Below, piece by piece: positions 4,456-61,948 of a stretch of 64,000 nucleotides of DNA. The notes under the pieces were generated by a model. It was not told where the DNA came from. It was given only the letters and a program-made list of their open reading frames with translations, and searched no databases. A program made the translations under genes and the position numbers. This DNA comes from an uncultured Hormoscilla sp. (GTDB taxonomy: Bacteria; Cyanobacteriota; Cyanobacteriia; Cyanobacteriales; Desertifilaceae), in contig OZ001293.3 in assembly GCA_963921275.4 (NCBI GenBank), forward strand, positions 6,400,001 through 6,464,000, in the 5' to 3' direction. Position 1 is the first letter of the stretch; each line of letters opens with the position of its first letter.

Positions 4456-6142
4456 TTAGCGATAAACTTGAGGACCAGCCCAAGCGTGGTTGACTAGATT
4501 ACCAAAAATTAGCGGTCGATCGTCCGTTGCCATAAAAGTTTTGTCCATGGAATCTACCGCAAAGATTGACCAGTCGTCTTCACCCAAGTTGCCAGTGCGG
4601 AACAGAACTTGACCGGGATAGTTTTGAGACCACCCCAGCAATATAGCATGGGTATAGGGGTCACTATCGGGAGTAATAGTGCTGGTGCTGTTAGACTGCC
4701 GGTCCCAAATCACCGCATAATCCGATACATTGGAAGAACTAAACAGACCTTCAAATTGCCGTCCCAGAATGCGATCGCCCGTTGGGGACCAAGCTACTGG
4801 AATCAACATCGTAATCACTCCGGGCAAAAGTGAGTCTTTGTTAGTCTTATAGGGATTATGGGCCAGGGGAGACGCCGCTGTAATCACCTGCAAATCTCCA
4901 GTTTTGAGATTTTCCAGAAACATCACACTACTGACACGACTCCGGTACAACTCCGGCTGTACTTGTAGCTGGATCCGGCTATAGGCAGCATACTCACCAT
5001 CTGGGGAAACCAATGAGAGACTACGGTAATGGCGGATCCCCGAACCAACGGTTTGGCTAACTTCAGCATGTGTTTTCATTACCCAATTCCAGGGTACTGG
5101 ATAGGGACTATTGAGAGGATCCTCCTGCTGGAATGATGAACCTGGGCTGAAAGTAGATGCGGACACTTCCTTAGCTTTAACCGGTGCTGAAGACCCGAAC
5201 ATCCGATCGGTGAGAGCAGATGGTCTGGCCAGCAGCAGAGCAGTTGTCAATAGCAACAGAAATGGCTTTGGGTAGTGCGATTCGTTCTAGTCTAACGTAG
5301 GCAACTACGGAACGCTAGGCCAGGTCCAAACTGGTAACTCTGGTATTCATGGGGGTTAGATTCCCTCTCTCCAAGTGTGGGAGTAACACCGGTCCTTAGT
5401 GCTGCTGAGTCACATCACGGTGGTGCGGAGCAAGGACTTAAATGTAGGATAGCTAGCAGCCTAAGCTAGTGACGCCGCTAGGAAAGATGCTAATGGCTAG
5501 AACAAGCGAACCTGTGTACGCCTCGTTATCTAGAACCAGCGAAATAAGGCTTAAAGCGCTGGCCCAAAAGGGAAATGGTAGTTTGTGCTGGTTCTTGCAC
5601 TTGGCCAGTATCGCACTCTAAGAACTCCCGGGGTATAGCAGGGGCCTAAAAGCATCGTGAAATGATACTAGGGAACGAAGTAACTTCTCGTGTGCTGTCT
5701 AGATTGGACAAGTTAGATGTAAAGCGCAAGCCGCGAGGGGAAAGATAGCCCGAGAAGCTAATGCCTAGGGTAACGCCTATGGATATGATGGGGTGTTCCT
5801 CATCCAGCTGACGCGGGTTGGTTAAAGTAGGAAATCTTGGGTAAGAGTATCTCTAAGACGCCGGAGGCCTCTCGAAGGTTGGATGACTGGTAAAACAGAC
5901 TTGGAAATGGTAATACTAAAGGTTATCTGGCAGCGCCGCTTACCAACCAGGAAAGGAGTGAAATCGCATGAGATGAGGGACAAGTGGAGCAATCCGTAGT
6001 AATCCTAGTAGTGACAATGCCCTACTTGCCAGTAGCCGGATGCGGTGAAAGTCGCACGTCCGGTTCCGAATGGGAGAGTTAGGGGGTGACCCCTAGCTCG
6101 ACCCCGACTAAACGAACCTGAATTAATTAGGCGCTTGAACAT
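4456..6142 (-). pseudogene. Putative secreted protein (283 aa when joined) interrupted after codon 11 by antisense intron A1
   Basis: Joining 6142-6110 to 5274-4456 gives MFKRLINSGSF|YPKPFLLLLTTALLLARP..., a signal-peptide-like start in one open frame. Confidence 0.75.
5275..6109 (+). mobile_element. ORF-less group II intron, family A, copy A1 (835 nt)
   Basis: 5' GTGCG; domain V AGCCGGATGCGGTGAAAGTCGCACGTCCGGTT; DVI ending CTCGACCCCGACT; near-identical to A2 and A3. Confidence 0.93.
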
Positions 6143-6774
6143 ATAATCATCTCTCTAAATTGGCATCTTGTGTGAGAAGCCAGGGCACCAGCGATCGTAA
6201 CGGACTTCTTTAGTTTATCTATATCATCGGTCGTCAGTTATCAGCACCATCCTTCGTCCAGAGGCAATCATGTAGAATCAACAAAAATACTTATTTGCCA
6301 AGGAGCAGCCCCTCCCTAGCTATCCGTCACCAGTTTCTCCATAATTATACCACAATCCCCACAGTTCGATCGTGCTTGGCTGCTTCAGTGAAATTATTGA
6401 TTTCCTCAGGTTTTGACTATATTTGTCTCAGAAATCGGGGATAAAAGACAATTGATAACAATTGGGATTGGCATGTATACTTTGAAAGGTTCAGACGAGT
6501 CAGTATTTAACAAGTTAAGCTATTGGCATGGTATATGTGCGATTCGTTTAGCGTAAACTAACTTGACACAAGTCAAGGAGGGGGACCGCTACCGGGATTT
6601 CGTAAGTCCCGAGAACTTACAGGTGATGGTGGTGAAAGCCCGCCCCTCCAGGTGCAGGAGTGACAGCACCCTCCCCACGGTAGCGATGGCATCAATCCGT
6701 GAAGCGGGAAGGAAAGGCGCTATGGCTGGGAGCCTAGACCGGTCATCGTCGAGCAAGTAACTATGATGAGCGTA

Positions 6775-59200: not shown

Positions 59201-59347
59201 CCGAAGGGTTCATGTAGCCGGACCCTAAAGGGTTCGGGCCGCTCAAAAAAAAATTCAGAGCCGCACCCATAATTAGCGGATATATGATATATACTAATAG
59301 TAGGCCCCTGCGAGGGGATAACCGCTAATAAAGCACATAGAGAAATT

Positions 59348-61948
59348 ATGGCTATATTCAATGTTAGTACAGAAGCAGAACTCTCCCAAGCCATTACCGA
59401 TTCCAGGAATAATGGTATGTCAGATACCATTAACATCATGGGAGATATTACCCTGACCGGGTTGCTACCTCATATTGAAGAAGACGTCGGTCTCACGATA
59501 GAAGGAGACAACAACGTCATTGATGGCAACAACCAACACCGGCTGTTCTTTGTCCTCGACGGTAAAGTCAATTTCAACGAGCTGATCTTTAGGAACGGCC
59601 GGGCCCAGGGAGGTAATGGCGTCAGCGGAGCAGCAGGCATGGGCGGTGCCCTGTTTATCTATGACGGGACCATCACTGCGACCAATAGCACTTTCGAGAA
59701 TAATAGCGCCATTGGTGGCGACGCCGATTGCATCATCAAGATTGATTCTGCACTATCTAGTGGCAGTCTAGTAGGTGGTAATGCTAACTTTATCACTCCT
59801 ATTCCTGCTAATGATGGCGACGACGGCAAGGACGGCAGCGAGGACGGCGAGGACGGCGATTTCGGCGGCAACGGCGGCGACGGCAGCAGCTTCGGCGACG
59901 GCGGCGACGGCGGCTTTGGCGGCAACGGCGGCAACGGCGGCTTTATAGACTTTTGCGGCGGCCGCCGCTGCGGCTTTGGCGGCGGCGGCAGCAGCGGCAA
60001 CGGCGGCTTCGGCGGCTTCGGCGGCGGGGGCGGCATCGGCAACGGCGGCGGCGGCGGCTGCTTTGGCGGCGGCGACGGCAGCGACAACTTTGGCGGCCGC
60101 GGCGCGGGCATGGGCTCCGCCATATTCATTCGCTCAGGCACACTTGAGATTTCCAACAGCAGTTTTAACAGCAATATCGCCTTTGGTGGCACTGGCTATA
60201 ACTCCGGCCAAGGTCTGGGGGGCGCCATATTCGCCCTGCACCGCCTCACCAATACCAACGGGAACAACCAAGGCATGCCCGACGCTCTGCCGACCGTACT
60301 CTTTAGAAATAACCTAGAGTTCTCGGGTAATATAGCCGGAAACGTAAATGGAAATACCATAGACCTTAATAATATGGATGGGGTCGAGCCGGGAATCGCT
60401 TCCCGACCCTCCCTTGAGGAACCGGACTTGCGATTTTCACCGCATCCGGCTACTGGGTACTAGGCCCTTTTCATAGGTAGACTTAATAGGAATTACTTCC
60501 GTTAGCCCTTGCCGCCTGTCTTTTCTTCCCTTTCCTGGTTTAGCGAGTGGTTGTTCTGATAACCGTTAGTATCACCATTTTCAAGTCAGTTTTACCAGTT
60601 ATCCATACCTTATCCTCCACTTGCGTTTCGGATTAGTTCCGTGGCTTTTTAGGATTACTCATTCCAGCAGCTTCCTAGTATCACCGACCCACGTCAGCGC
60701 TGGCTACCCAGCATCATCTACATTACTGTAGATGTTATCCCAGGAATTACCCCGGGCATTCGCTTCTTGGGCCATCCCTTGAGGAACCGGACTTGCGATT
60801 TTCACCGCATCCGGCTACTGGGTACTAGGCCCTTTTCATAGGTAGACTTAATAGGAATTACTTCCGTTAGCTCTTGCCGCCTGTCTTTTCTTCCCTTTCC
60901 TGGTTTAGCGAGTGGTTGTTCTGATAACCGTTAGTATCACCATTTTCAAGTCAGTTTTACCAGTTATCCATACCTTATCCTCCACTTGCGTTTCGGATTA
61001 GTTCCGTGGCTTTTTAGGATTACTCATTCCAGCAGCTTCCTAGTATCACCGACCCACGTCAGCGCTGGCTACCCAGCATCATCTACATTACTGTAGATGT
61101 TATCCCAGGAATTACCCCGGGCATTCGCTTCTTGGGCCATCCCTCCCCCCGTGGCTTGCGCTTAACATCTAACTTGTCCTGATGGACAGCACACGAGAGG
61201 TTACTTCGTTCCCTAACAACATTTCGCGATACCTTTAGGTCCACACTATACCCCGGGAGCTATTTGAGTACTATATTAGCCAGAGTCTAAAACTAATACT
61301 AGCTACCATTTCTTTTTTAGGCCAGCGCATATAGCCTTATTTCGCTGGTTCCTTATAACGAGGCTTGCACATGTTTGCCTGCTCTAACCTTGGATATCTT
61401 TCCTAGCGGCGTCACCGGCTTAGGCTGCCAGTTATCCTACATTTGAGTCCTCGCTTAGCACCACGATGATGTCGCTTCGTAGCACCGAGGACCGGTGTCA
61501 CCCCCGTACCTGGGGGGAGGGGAATTTAACCCCCATGCGGTCAGAGTTCCCGGCTAATGAAACCGGGCTAGCGTTCCGTGTTTGACCACGTTAGGCTAGA
61601 ACGAATCGCACAGACTCCATTGGGTTAACAGGAGAAGATGAGAGGAACCTACTTGTCGGCGGCAGTGGAAATGATACCCTGATCGGCGGAAGCCGAGGAG
61701 ACTACCTTATCGGAGGAGAGGACGCCGATATTTTTGTTCTGAGGCCAACCACGGGTGCGGATCTCATCGTAGACTTTGAAAATGGCACGGACTTGATACG
61801 GCTAGCAGAAAGTTTGAGTTTCAATGATTTGGAAATCGTCCCTCAGGGCCAAAACACAGTGATTAACTATGAAGAGAAAACCATGGCCACTTTGTGGGGG
61901 ATTAATTCAATCCTGATTAATAGCGATGATTTTGCCATGGTAAATTGA
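59348..61948 (+). pseudogene. Gly-rich secreted protein with RTX tail, interrupted by antisense intron B5 (join 59348-60375 + 61612-61948, 454 aa)
   Basis: Joined ...DLNN I DSIGLTG...GGSGNDTLIGG...GGEDADIFVL...DLIVDFENGTD...DDFAMVN*. Confidence 0.85.
60376..61611 (-). mobile_element. ORF-less intron B5 with a 365-bp internal tandem duplication (1236 nt)
   Basis: 60415-60779 is repeated at 60780-61144. Confidence 0.92.

What the first reader, a model, noticed from the sequence alone, without database searches (positions are those of the whole stretch)
5275..61611. Recent burst of ORF-less group II introns acting like non-autonomous retro-MITEs, with three EBS1 specificities
Seen: nine ORF-less copies in 64 kb, near-identical within families, at unrelated sites with no target duplication. 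Each family has its own putative EBS1 loop that matches its 5' flanks. B has AGACUC (24275-24280) versus flanks GAGTCT, AAGTCT, GTGTCT, GGATCT and GGTTCT. A has UGCACU (5596-5601) versus AGTACA, AGCGTA and TGGGTA. D has AUUUGC versus GTAGAT. Inference: insertion is by RNA-guided reverse splicing with very relaxed specificity (B shares only ...TCT), using an RT supplied in trans. Extrapolating, there may be very many copies genome-wide.
Basis: partly seen in the sequence, partly recalled or inferred. Interest (0 to 1): 0.82.

Follow-up and report, generated by a model that had tools for sequence, protein, structure and literature searches.

The report
Swarm of ORF-less group II introns
The window holds nine protein-less group II introns, four of them nested inside a tenth intron that carries a broken reverse-transcriptase gene, and they belong to about 400 intron copies in one cyanobacterial chromosome that likely spread by RNA-guided reverse splicing with an enzyme borrowed from other introns, the same kind of system as in Thermosynechococcus but about four times the largest load I found in print.

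Summary
Genome-wide there are 415 intron 5' ends, 390 domain V hairpins and 269 ORF-less units (B 138, A 72, D 12). Flank logos match the predicted guides: EBS1 pairs with 5.1-5.3 of 6 flank bases against 2.0-2.3 at random, EBS2 covaries with IBS2 in at least 7 specificities, and -14 and +1 are A. Empty sites in congeners and in related metagenome contigs show exact, duplication-free insertion. Family D interrupts the single-copy zwf gene in sense; B3 splits a giant adhesin-like gene in antisense. B copies differ from their consensus by 0.16%. The mechanism (reverse splicing, RT in trans) is inferred, not shown; no RNA data were available. It is the same kind of system as the TeI3/TeI4 introns of Thermosynechococcus elongatus, on a larger scale. 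This scan reported the same swarm from at least eight other windows of this genome.

The parts
5275..6109 (+). Intron A1, ORF-less family A, 835 nt (GTGCG...GACT). EBS2 UCUAG at 5529-5533, EBS1 UGCACU at 5596-5601.
   Evidence: The site is empty in related metagenome contigs (joint 5274->6110, skips 835) and in congeners G001 and G002.
6537..12386 (+). Composite RT-encoding intron R, 5850 nt, carrying A2, B1 and a B-in-B twintron. The R backbone alone is 2403 nt.
   Evidence: The site is empty in metagenome contigs (joint 6534->12385, skips 5850) and in G001, G002 and G004.
6775..7609 (+). Intron A2, inside domain I of R, same orientation as R (a twintron).
   Evidence: R copies exist with and without it at R position 238.
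7743..8613 (-). Intron B1, 871 nt, antisense inside R. Among the 9 R copies it is found only in this one.
8843..10297 (+). R intron-encoded protein, truncated to 484 aa. It keeps RVT_N, RVT_1 and GIIM and has lost the HNH domain to the B insertion.
   Evidence: Pfam on the window copy. The intact 598-aa version elsewhere has HNH. Best solved relative is 6me0_C, E 1.7e-114.
10256..10358 (-). Outer B of the twintron, 3' piece (B positions 769-871, domains V-VI).
10359..11229 (-). Intron B2, the inner intron of the B-in-B twintron, inserted at AAGTCT^A of the outer B.
   Evidence: The junction compared with an intact B fixes both ends exactly. 5 such twintrons occur in the genome.
11230..11996 (-). 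Outer B of the twintron, 5' piece (B positions 1-768), antisense in the 3' part of the R ORF.
12310..12386 (+). Domains V-VI of R. The intron ends ...TTTAAT.
   Evidence: RF00029 at 57.6 bits. Common 3' end across 9 R copies.
23952..24822 (+). Intron B3. EBS2a U at 24206, EBS2 UAAGG at 24208-24212, EBS1 AGACUC at 24275-24280. It lies antisense in a giant cadherin/LRR/RTX-repeat gene.
   Evidence: The open frame of 3339 nt on the minus strand continues across the joined flanks. Pfam domains.
46752..47684 (-). Intron D1, 933 nt, sense orientation inside zwf (glucose-6-phosphate dehydrogenase). EBS1 AUUUGC, EBS2 AUAAG.
   Evidence: Removing it restores ...[18 protein letters not shown] and a 513-aa frame. 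zwf is single-copy. The 4 congeners have uninterrupted frames of 513-543 aa.
46254..48716 (-). zwf gene: exon 1 at 47685-48716, exon 2 at 46254-46751.
57546..58379 (+). Intron A3, 834 nt, near the 3' end of a 112-aa ORF, sense orientation.
   Evidence: A paralogous empty site at C1:4111058-4111504 is 98.4% identical across the junction.
60375..61611 (-). B4r, a rearranged B: positions 1 to about 836 fused to about 473-871, a 365-nt internal duplication.
   Evidence: The junction 28-mer occurs once in the genome.

Best explanation
These are ORF-less group II introns of IIB type that likely multiplied as non-autonomous retroelements. The excised intron RNA would reverse-splice into DNA at sites chosen by base pairing, and a reverse transcriptase encoded by other introns in the genome would copy it. 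Shown: the ribozyme hallmarks, the copy numbers, the exact duplication-free insertions, and the match between each family's guide loops and its flanks. Inferred: splicing in vivo, the reverse-splicing route, and use of RT in trans. The pairings are EBS1 with the 6 nt at -6..-1, EBS2 with the 5 nt at -13..-9, a conserved U (EBS2a) with A at -14, and A at +1. Families differ in their guide loops and therefore in their targets. Because 1-3 mismatches or wobbles are tolerated, the copies land at many ectopic sites: in genes in either orientation, between genes, and inside other introns.
For: Ribozyme: every copy starts GTGCG and has a domain V-VI match above the Rfam cut-off (10 in the window). 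In the genome, 151 matches were reported from the 150 of 867 candidates that were scored. Domain V has the AGC triad and a GAAA loop (sequence). EBS1 sits in a predicted hairpin loop in the B and D folds.

Census: 415 5' ends, 390 domain V, 269 ORF-less units; clusters B 138, A 72, D 12.

Guides: B EBS1 forms 5.14 of 6 pairs with its own flanks, 2.30 with A flanks and 2.01 at 5000 random sites. A forms 5.25, 2.45 and 2.27. EBS2 forms 3.79 and 3.57 of 5 against about 2.0 at random. EBS2 and IBS2 covary at the same intron position in 7 specificities: UAAGG/CCTTA 136 copies, UCUAG/yTAGA 70, CAUAG/CTATG 7, AUAAG/CTTAT 5, ACCAA/TTGGT 5, CACCG/CGGTG 2, and ACUAG/.TAG 3 (a partial match). Position -14 is A in 58 of 121 B sites and 35 of 61 A sites (p 3e-7 each). 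Position +1 is A in 86 of 121 and 56 of 61. The -14 signal fits the EBS2a-IBS2a pair, which is needed for DNA integration but not for splicing (PMC8643678, passages).

Exact insertion: the twintron, R with and without A, a paralogous empty site, and empty A1 and R sites in metagenome contigs and congeners.

Recency: 61 of 138 B copies equal the consensus, with a mean of 1.37 differences per 871 nt. For A it is 13 of 72 and a mean of 1.64. B at 99% identity or more was found only in G000 among 41 genomes; the best elsewhere is 92%.

Helper RT: 75 GIIM matches, 22 of them in open frames of 555 aa or more without stops. The intact R protein has RT, X and HNH domains.

Likely splicing: D1 sits in sense in single-copy zwf with both exons intact.
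Against: No RNA data for this organism could be laid, so splicing, lariats and expression are unshown. The runs that hold the locus are contigs of unknown kind, and no exon-exon joint for zwf was among the joints listed.

No RT-encoding intron in the genome has a ribozyme close to A, B or D; only 40-68 nt stretches match. The helper is therefore unidentified, and the ORF-less lineage is older than the burst.

The 3' ends are ...CC, ...CU and ...CC, not the usual AY.

B shows no sense bias in genes: 35 sense, 39 antisense, 64 neither, of 138. Many copies therefore cannot be spliced out of host transcripts.

17 of 138 B and 11 of 72 A copies share flanks with another copy. Some of the copy number thus comes from being carried in larger repeated units such as R composites.

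Position -15 is enriched for A more strongly than -14 and has no known pairing partner.
Confidence: 0.85

Rival explanations
1. The elements are dead relics. A burst of retromobility happened, but the copies no longer splice or move, and genes such as zwf are simply broken.
For: No RNA evidence. Half of the in-gene B copies are antisense and so disrupt their genes. B3 splits a large gene. The window's own RT is truncated. One B copy is rearranged.
Against: 61 of 138 B copies are identical to the consensus. 22 RT frames are intact. The zwf exons are intact, single-copy and 96-98% identical in protein to uninterrupted congener genes. Guide loops and domain V are conserved in all copies examined (EBS1 present in 121 of 121 B and 61 of 61 A).
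Confidence: 0.12
2. Copies spread at the DNA level, by segmental duplication, recombination or a transposase, rather than through RNA.
For: 17 of 138 B and 11 of 72 A copies share flanks with another copy. B lies at one shared site in the R ORF in 8 of 9 R copies, and A in 7 of 9. B4r shows a DNA-type or template-switch rearrangement at a 5-nt microhomology.
Against: 121 of 138 and 61 of 72 copies have unique flanks. There are no target duplications and no terminal inverted repeats. Ends fall exactly at the ribozyme's 5' GTGCG and just after domain VI. Flanks are complementary to guide loops that differ between families.
Confidence: 0.03
3. Sub-question on the nested copies. The R+A+B composite (4.1 kb) may itself be retromobilised as one unit, rather than A and B homing repeatedly into conserved sites of R.
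For: Five R+A+B composites lie at five different sites with R-type flanks (GTATAn). All but 1 of their 23 variable columns are changes private to one copy, spread over R (10), A (7) and B (6). No naked R is among the 9 copies.
Against: Nested A and B copies share no diagnostic variant. Nested A copies carry different family sub-variants, for example 2 of 7 with G>A at column 468. R+A, R+B and R+twintron states also exist. The antisense R site is a good B target, with 5 of 6 and 4 of 5 pairs plus AA at -15/-14 (read from the flank). The divergence of the inner copies equals the family averages.
Confidence: 0.4

Closest known systems
TeI3 (ORF-less) and TeI4 (RT-encoding) group IIB introns of Thermosynechococcus elongatus (Mohr, Ghanem and Lambowitz 2010, PMC2882425; passages read)
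   Same: Cyanobacterial host. ORF-less introns outnumber RT-encoding ones. Families are defined by diverged EBS sequences. Twintrons and insertions into other mobile elements occur. RT is supplied in trans by driver IEPs. The intact R protein's best solved relative is 6me0_C, E 1.7e-114 over residues 9-573; that this entry is the T. elongatus intron RNP follows from PMC8643678.
   Different: Scale: 28 introns with 17 ORF-less there, against about 400 with 269 ORF-less here. There, all ORF-less introns share one deletion and are close to the ORF-containing introns. Here, no RT-encoding intron has a ribozyme close to A, B or D. There, most copies lie outside genes. Here, 74 of 138 B copies lie in long open frames, half of them antisense. 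Mobility was shown by assay there and is only inferred here.
Arthrospira platensis, the highest group II intron count in the survey of Miura et al. 2022 (PMC8919778; abstract and passages read)
   Same: A filamentous cyanobacterium in which CL-type introns expanded.
   Different: 101 introns were the maximum among 1,790 representative bacterial genomes. This chromosome has 415 5' ends and 390 domain V hairpins.
EcI5 and the EBS2a-IBS2a pairing of IIB1/IIB2 introns (Monachello et al. 2021, PMC8643678; passages read)
   Same: Three nucleotides (UUA) precede EBS2, with a middle U followed by A. Position -14, immediately 5' of the 5-bp IBS2, is enriched for the complementary A.
   Different: All families here share the same EBS2a base, so no covariation test is possible. 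Position -15 is enriched even more, which that rule does not explain.
Euglena chloroplast group II/III introns and twintrons; nested introns of Methanosarcina acetivorans (both as cited in PMC2882425); the Trichodesmium twintron (PMC4649490, listing and abstract only)
   Same: Proliferation of ORF-less introns that depend on a few RTs. Introns lie within introns.
   Different: Those are organellar and degenerate (Euglena), or few in number. Here the ribozymes are complete and near-identical, in a free bacterial chromosome.

Membership tests
Group II intron (ribozyme) | Conserved 5' end GUGYG | tested here: met
   All window copies start GTGCG. 415 GTGCGATTCG starts in the genome.
Group II intron (ribozyme) | Domain V hairpin with catalytic AGC triad, followed by domain VI | tested here: met
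   RF00029 matched over model positions 1-77 above the 40-bit cut-off at 10 window sites. AGC, a 2-nt bulge and a GAAA loop are read from the sequence.
Group II intron (ribozyme) | 3' end AY | tested here: not met
   B ends ...AUCC, A ends ...GACU and D ends ...GACC, fixed by empty sites and the zwf frame. R ends ...UAAU. This is a consensus trait, not a requirement.
Group II intron (ribozyme) | Domains I-IV matching a curated D1-D4 model | tested here: inconclusive
   Only RF01999 at 22 bits, below its cut-off of 36 (E 0.046), on B3.
Group II intron (ribozyme) | EBS1-IBS1 and EBS2-IBS2 pairing with the 5' exon | tested here: met
   Pair counts against random sites and cross-family controls. 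Covariation in 7 specificities.
Subgroup IIB | EBS2a-IBS2a pair at -14, and an IBS3 at +1 of the 3' exon | tested here: inconclusive
   A is enriched at -14 and +1, and a U sits in the expected EBS2a place. There is no covariation, because all families share the same bases. EBS3 was not located.
Group II intron (function) | Splicing with lariat formation in vivo | not testable with these tools
   No RNA reads of the organism were available. The only hint is an intact single-copy zwf split in sense.
Non-autonomous (ORF-less) mobile group II intron, TeI3-like | No intron-encoded protein | tested here: met
   Units are 835-933 nt. The longest frame in a B twintron is 58 aa. blastx finds only the domain V-encoded tail.
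Non-autonomous (ORF-less) mobile group II intron, TeI3-like | Derived from an ORF-containing intron by deletion, with ORF remnants in domain IV | tested here: inconclusive
   One weak N-terminal remnant in D (14 aa, E 2.7) and none in A or B. No close ORF-containing ribozyme exists.
Non-autonomous (ORF-less) mobile group II intron, TeI3-like | Intact RT/maturase genes elsewhere in the genome that could act in trans | tested here: met
   22 of 75 GIIM matches lie in stop-free frames of 555 aa or more. Domains RVT_N, RVT_1, GIIM and HNH are present.
Non-autonomous (ORF-less) mobile group II intron, TeI3-like | Mobilisation by a heterologous IEP | not testable with these tools
   This needs a donor/recipient mobility assay.

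The most novel reading that the evidence does not exclude
This cyanobacterial lineage is in the middle of a live, genome-wide intron invasion. Several hundred RT-less ribozymes, split into at least seven guide specificities, all depend on a shared pool of trans-acting maturase/RTs. They already sit in single-copy housekeeping genes that must be spliced to work. This would be a bacterial analogue of the stage proposed to precede the spliceosome. It would also include composite introns-within-introns that move as single units.
Probability: 0.35. Interest if true: 0.8.

Novelty: new member of a known kind. Interest (0 to 1): 0.6.

Why it matters
Group II introns are the presumed ancestors of spliceosomal introns and non-LTR retroelements, yet bacteria normally hold only a handful. 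The largest count I found in print is 101 per genome (PMC8919778). I found no report of several hundred in four further full-text searches.

A chromosome with about 400 copies is a natural experiment on three questions: how introns multiply, how far guide-RNA specificity can relax, and how a common splicing and mobility apparatus can serve many RT-less introns. The features that make it useful are these:
- Most copies are ORF-less and nearly identical.
- They are sorted into guide-defined families.
- They sit in core genes and inside one another.

The 138 B and 72 A insertion sites also form a ready-made data set of natural target sites for IIB intron retargeting rules, including the -14 and -15 positions.

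Tried and rejected
1. The A3 joint 57545->58380 in runs X2 and X4 first looked like an insertion polymorphism. It is explained by a paralogous empty site in the same genome, 98.4% identical, so it is not evidence of polymorphism.

2. RNA evidence. The run search gave no RNA run with a large share of the locus. The two read-laying runs used contigs of unknown or DNA kind, so nothing can be said about splicing.

3. Depths are summed contig depths and were not used as copy numbers. The zero depth over 11004-11670 in the metagenomes is not used either, because multi-mapping contigs are placed only once.

4. Replication-strand bias. Counts of + and - copies in 0.5-Mb bins show no pattern, and the cumulative GC skew is weak.

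5. Search for a parent RT-encoding intron. BLAST of A, B and D against 2.35-2.8 kb units gave only short matches. One apparent hit (1139670) is a D-like ORF-less intron lying next to an RT gene, which my simple pairing had mispaired.

6. ORF remnants by blastx were not significant, apart from the tail encoded by domain V.

7. Diagnostic variants for R-nested copies: none were found.

8. Rfam D1-D4 models were below their cut-offs.

9. An exact 36-mer of the B 5' end in 185,579 species' genomes returned no locus that was shown. The roughly 121 stored stretches that hold it were withheld as the window's own genome or one very near it.

10. Literature. 'Hormoscilla' plus 'intron' gave 0 papers; this was a guess at the taxon and is not used.

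
Full report
WHAT IS IN THE WINDOW

Rfam's group II intron model for domains V-VI (RF00029) scores above its gathering cut-off at 10 distinct places; an eleventh row is a plastid domain V model lying on one of the same sites. Self-BLAST sorts the elements into three near-identical families.
- Family A: three copies, 98.9-99.6% identical.
- Family B: copies 99.8-99.9% identical over about 875 nt.
- Family D: one copy.
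- Between families, A and B share 79% and A and D share 87% over the 5' half.

True ends were fixed by natural empty sites.
- A B copy inserted inside another B shows that the insert is GTGCG...CATCC, 871 nt, placed between AAGTCT and ACCTATG with no duplication.
- R copies with and without A fix A at 835 nt ending ...GACT.
- Removing 47684..46752 restores the G6PD motif ...[18 protein letters not shown] and a 513-aa frame.

Window 6537-12386 is one RT-encoding group II intron, R, of 5850 nt. Its 2403-nt backbone is interrupted by:
- A2, in sense, in domain I;
- B1, in antisense;
- a B-in-B twintron, in antisense, in the 3' part of the RT gene.

The RT frame at 8843-10297 keeps RVT_N, RVT_1 and GIIM but has lost the HNH domain. 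The intact 598-aa version elsewhere in the genome has it. The best solved relative of that protein is chain 6me0_C, E 1.7e-114.

So 4 of the 9 ORF-less copies are nested in another intron, and the window holds 10 introns in all. The copy at 60375-61611 is a B with a 365-nt internal duplication joined at a short microhomology. Its junction is unique in the genome.

GENOME-WIDE CENSUS

The laid genome has 7.03 Mb in 7 contigs. It is cyanobacterial: 16 phycobilisome-family matches, and the control rings only in Synechococcus.

The chromosome holds 415 GTGCGATTCG intron starts. It also has 390 domain V hairpins within 6 substitutions of a reference hairpin. Simple nesting-aware pairing gives 384 paired units. 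Of these, 269 span under 1.1 kb from 5' end to domain V and are therefore ORF-less.

At 94% identity or more over 90% of the length or more, the ORF-less units cluster as 138 (B), 72 (A), 12 (D), 5, 5, 3 and smaller groups. Paired units under 7 kb cover 329,323 bp, 4.8% of the chromosome. This is a lower bound.

The maturase family PF08388 matches 75 places, and 22 of them lie in stop-free frames of 555 aa or more. tblastn with seven of these proteins merges into 121 RT-coding loci or fragments, and the proteins are 66-88% identical to each other.

After dropping copies with duplicate flanks, 121 of 138 B sites, 61 of 72 A sites and 12 of 12 D sites remain. The flank logos are:
- B: CCTTA at -13..-9 and GAGTCT at -6..-1.
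- A: yTAGA and AGTGYA at the same positions.

These are complementary to loops at the same intron positions: UAAGG and AGACUC in B, UCUAG and UGCACU in A.

Mean pairs formed:

| Guide | Own flanks | Other family's flanks | 5000 random sites |
|---|---|---|---|
| B EBS1 (of 6) | 5.14 | 2.30 | 2.01 |
| A EBS1 (of 6) | 5.25 | 2.45 | 2.27 |
| B EBS2 (of 5) | 3.79 | 2.49 | 2.04 |
| A EBS2 (of 5) | 3.57 | 2.27 | 2.00 |

Most copies form 8-10 of the 11 pairs, where random sites peak at 4.

The D cluster is really two sub-families whose guides and flanks changed together:
- AUAAG and AUUUGC with flanks CTTAT..GTAGAT, 5 copies.
- CAUAG and a CAUCUA loop with flanks CTATG..TAGATG, 7 copies.

Over all 269 units, at least 7 EBS2 specificities covary with IBS2.

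No Watson-Crick-perfect 11-nt B site exists anywhere in the chromosome, occupied or not. For A there is 1 occupied and 2 unoccupied. Every B copy therefore sits at an imperfect site.

TWO MORE POSITIONS SHARED BY ALL FAMILIES

Position +1 is A in 86 of 121 B sites, 56 of 61 A sites and 10 of 12 D sites. Position -14 is A in 58 of 121, 35 of 61 and 8 of 12, against a background of 26%.

The three nucleotides before EBS2 are UUA in all families. That is the arrangement described for the EBS2a-IBS2a pair of IIB introns, where the middle base pairs with position -14 of the DNA target. That pair is needed for integration but not for splicing, and the RT stabilises it (PMC8643678, passages). I read the A at -14 as this pair. 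This is an inference, because all families share the same base and no covariation is possible.

Position -15 is A even more often (86 of 121 B, 41 of 61 A), and I cannot explain it.

RECENCY AND EMPTY SITES

- 61 of 138 B copies equal the family majority sequence. The mean is 1.37 differences per 871 nt, and 115 of 130 variants are singletons.
- For A, 13 of 72 equal the majority and the mean is 1.64 differences.
- Among 41 genomes of the order, B at 99% identity or more occurs only in G000. The four congeners carry related introns at 75-93%.
- zwf is single-copy in G000 and is uninterrupted in all four congeners, with frames of 513-543 aa and 96-98% protein identity.
- The A1 and R sites are empty in G001 and G002, and the R site is empty in G004.
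- Contigs of three sponge-metagenome runs, holding a relative a few percent diverged, join 5274 to 6110 (skipping 835, GT..CT) and 6534 to 12385 (skipping 5850) on the same contigs.
- One metagenome contig also leaves no room for D1 in zwf.

WHERE THE COPIES SIT

A site counts as lying in a frame if a stop-free stretch of 450 nt or more spans the joined flanks.

| Set | Sense | Antisense | Neither | Total |
|---|---|---|---|---|
| B | 35 | 39 | 64 | 138 |
| A | 21 | 7 | 44 | 72 |
| Random positions | 655 | 593 | 752 | 2000 |

B therefore shows no sense bias.

In the window:
- D1 is in sense in zwf.
- A3 is in sense near the end of a small ORF.
- B3 is in antisense inside a giant gene with cadherin, LRR and RTX repeats, whose frame continues across the joined flanks.
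- B4r is in antisense at the end of a 371-aa ORF.
- A1 lies just upstream of a minus-strand ORF.

25 of 138 B copies and 9 of 72 A copies are nested in other introns or RT-coding DNA. Five B-in-B twintrons use the same internal site, against 143 unoccupied copies of that site.

THE R COMPOSITES

All 9 complete R copies carry nested introns: R+A (1 copy), R+B (1), R+A+B (5), R+twintron (1) and the window copy.

In the five R+A+B copies, which sit at five different sites, all but 1 of the 23 variable columns are changes private to one copy, spread over R, A and B. This fits copying of the composite as a unit.

Against that, nested copies share no diagnostic variant and carry different family sub-variants, and the R site is a good B target. 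I leave this open.

MECHANISM AND ITS STATUS

Shown:
- ribozyme hallmarks;
- copy numbers;
- exact insertion without duplication;
- guide-flank complementarity with covariation;
- recency;
- intact RT genes elsewhere in the genome.

Inferred:
- the introns splice;
- they inserted by reverse splicing into DNA;
- the RT came in trans.

The helper RT is not identified. RT-encoding introns in this genome have clearly different ribozymes, with only 40-68 nt matches to A, B and D. The ORF-less lineage therefore diversified on its own.

COMPARISON WITH WHAT IS KNOWN

The system works like the TeI3/TeI4 introns of T. elongatus. There, 28 introns include 17 ORF-less ones, in six EBS families, with driver RTs and twintrons (PMC2882425, passages). 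The difference is scale and context. The largest count in a survey of 1,790 representative bacterial genomes was 101 (PMC8919778). Four further full-text searches found no report of several hundred. I could not see the supplementary tables of those papers.

EARLIER NOTES OF THIS SCAN

At least eight other windows of the same genome were reported with the same reading. My counts agree with theirs.

Noticed in passing
G000 contig C3 (whole, 31,420 bp): G+C is 17.6% against 47.4% for the chromosome. It may be a foreign replicon or a contaminant.
   Followed up: no
families B and A, genome-wide: Variant sites within the intron families are mostly G>A and C>T: 70 of 98 substitution sites in B and 35 of 42 in A. 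This could be a mutational bias, RT errors or deamination.
   Followed up: no
window 58525-58680: A dispersed repeat of about 160 nt lies just 3' of intron A3. It has at least 20 further copies in the chromosome at 78-94% identity. It may be a small MITE-like element unrelated to the introns.
   Followed up: no
window 20768-25164, minus strand: A giant adhesin-like gene (DUF4347, LRR, six cadherin domains, RTX repeats) with 585-bp and 300-bp tandem repeats, split by B3.
   Followed up: partly
window 60375-61611: A B copy with a 365-nt internal duplication joined at the microhomology AGGGA. Its junction occurs once in the genome. It may be a template switch or a replication slip.
   Followed up: partly
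5' exon position -15 of B and A sites, genome-wide: A in 86 of 121 B sites and 41 of 61 A sites. No intron base seems placed to pair with it.
   Followed up: partly
congeners G002, G003, G004: Each carries dozens of R-like RT-coding intron copies at 70-81% nucleotide identity, while G001 has few. The heavy intron load is a trait of the genus, with different families in each species.
   Followed up: partly
window 28987-29272 and 30366-30650; 55543-56157 and 56245-56861: A 286-bp direct repeat at 98.6% identity, and a pair of adjacent paralogous ORFs at 87%.
   Followed up: no
genome-wide domain V variants: Some families have a domain V whose 3' strand does not match its 5' strand; one such variant occurs in 18 copies. 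None of these is in this window.
   Followed up: no
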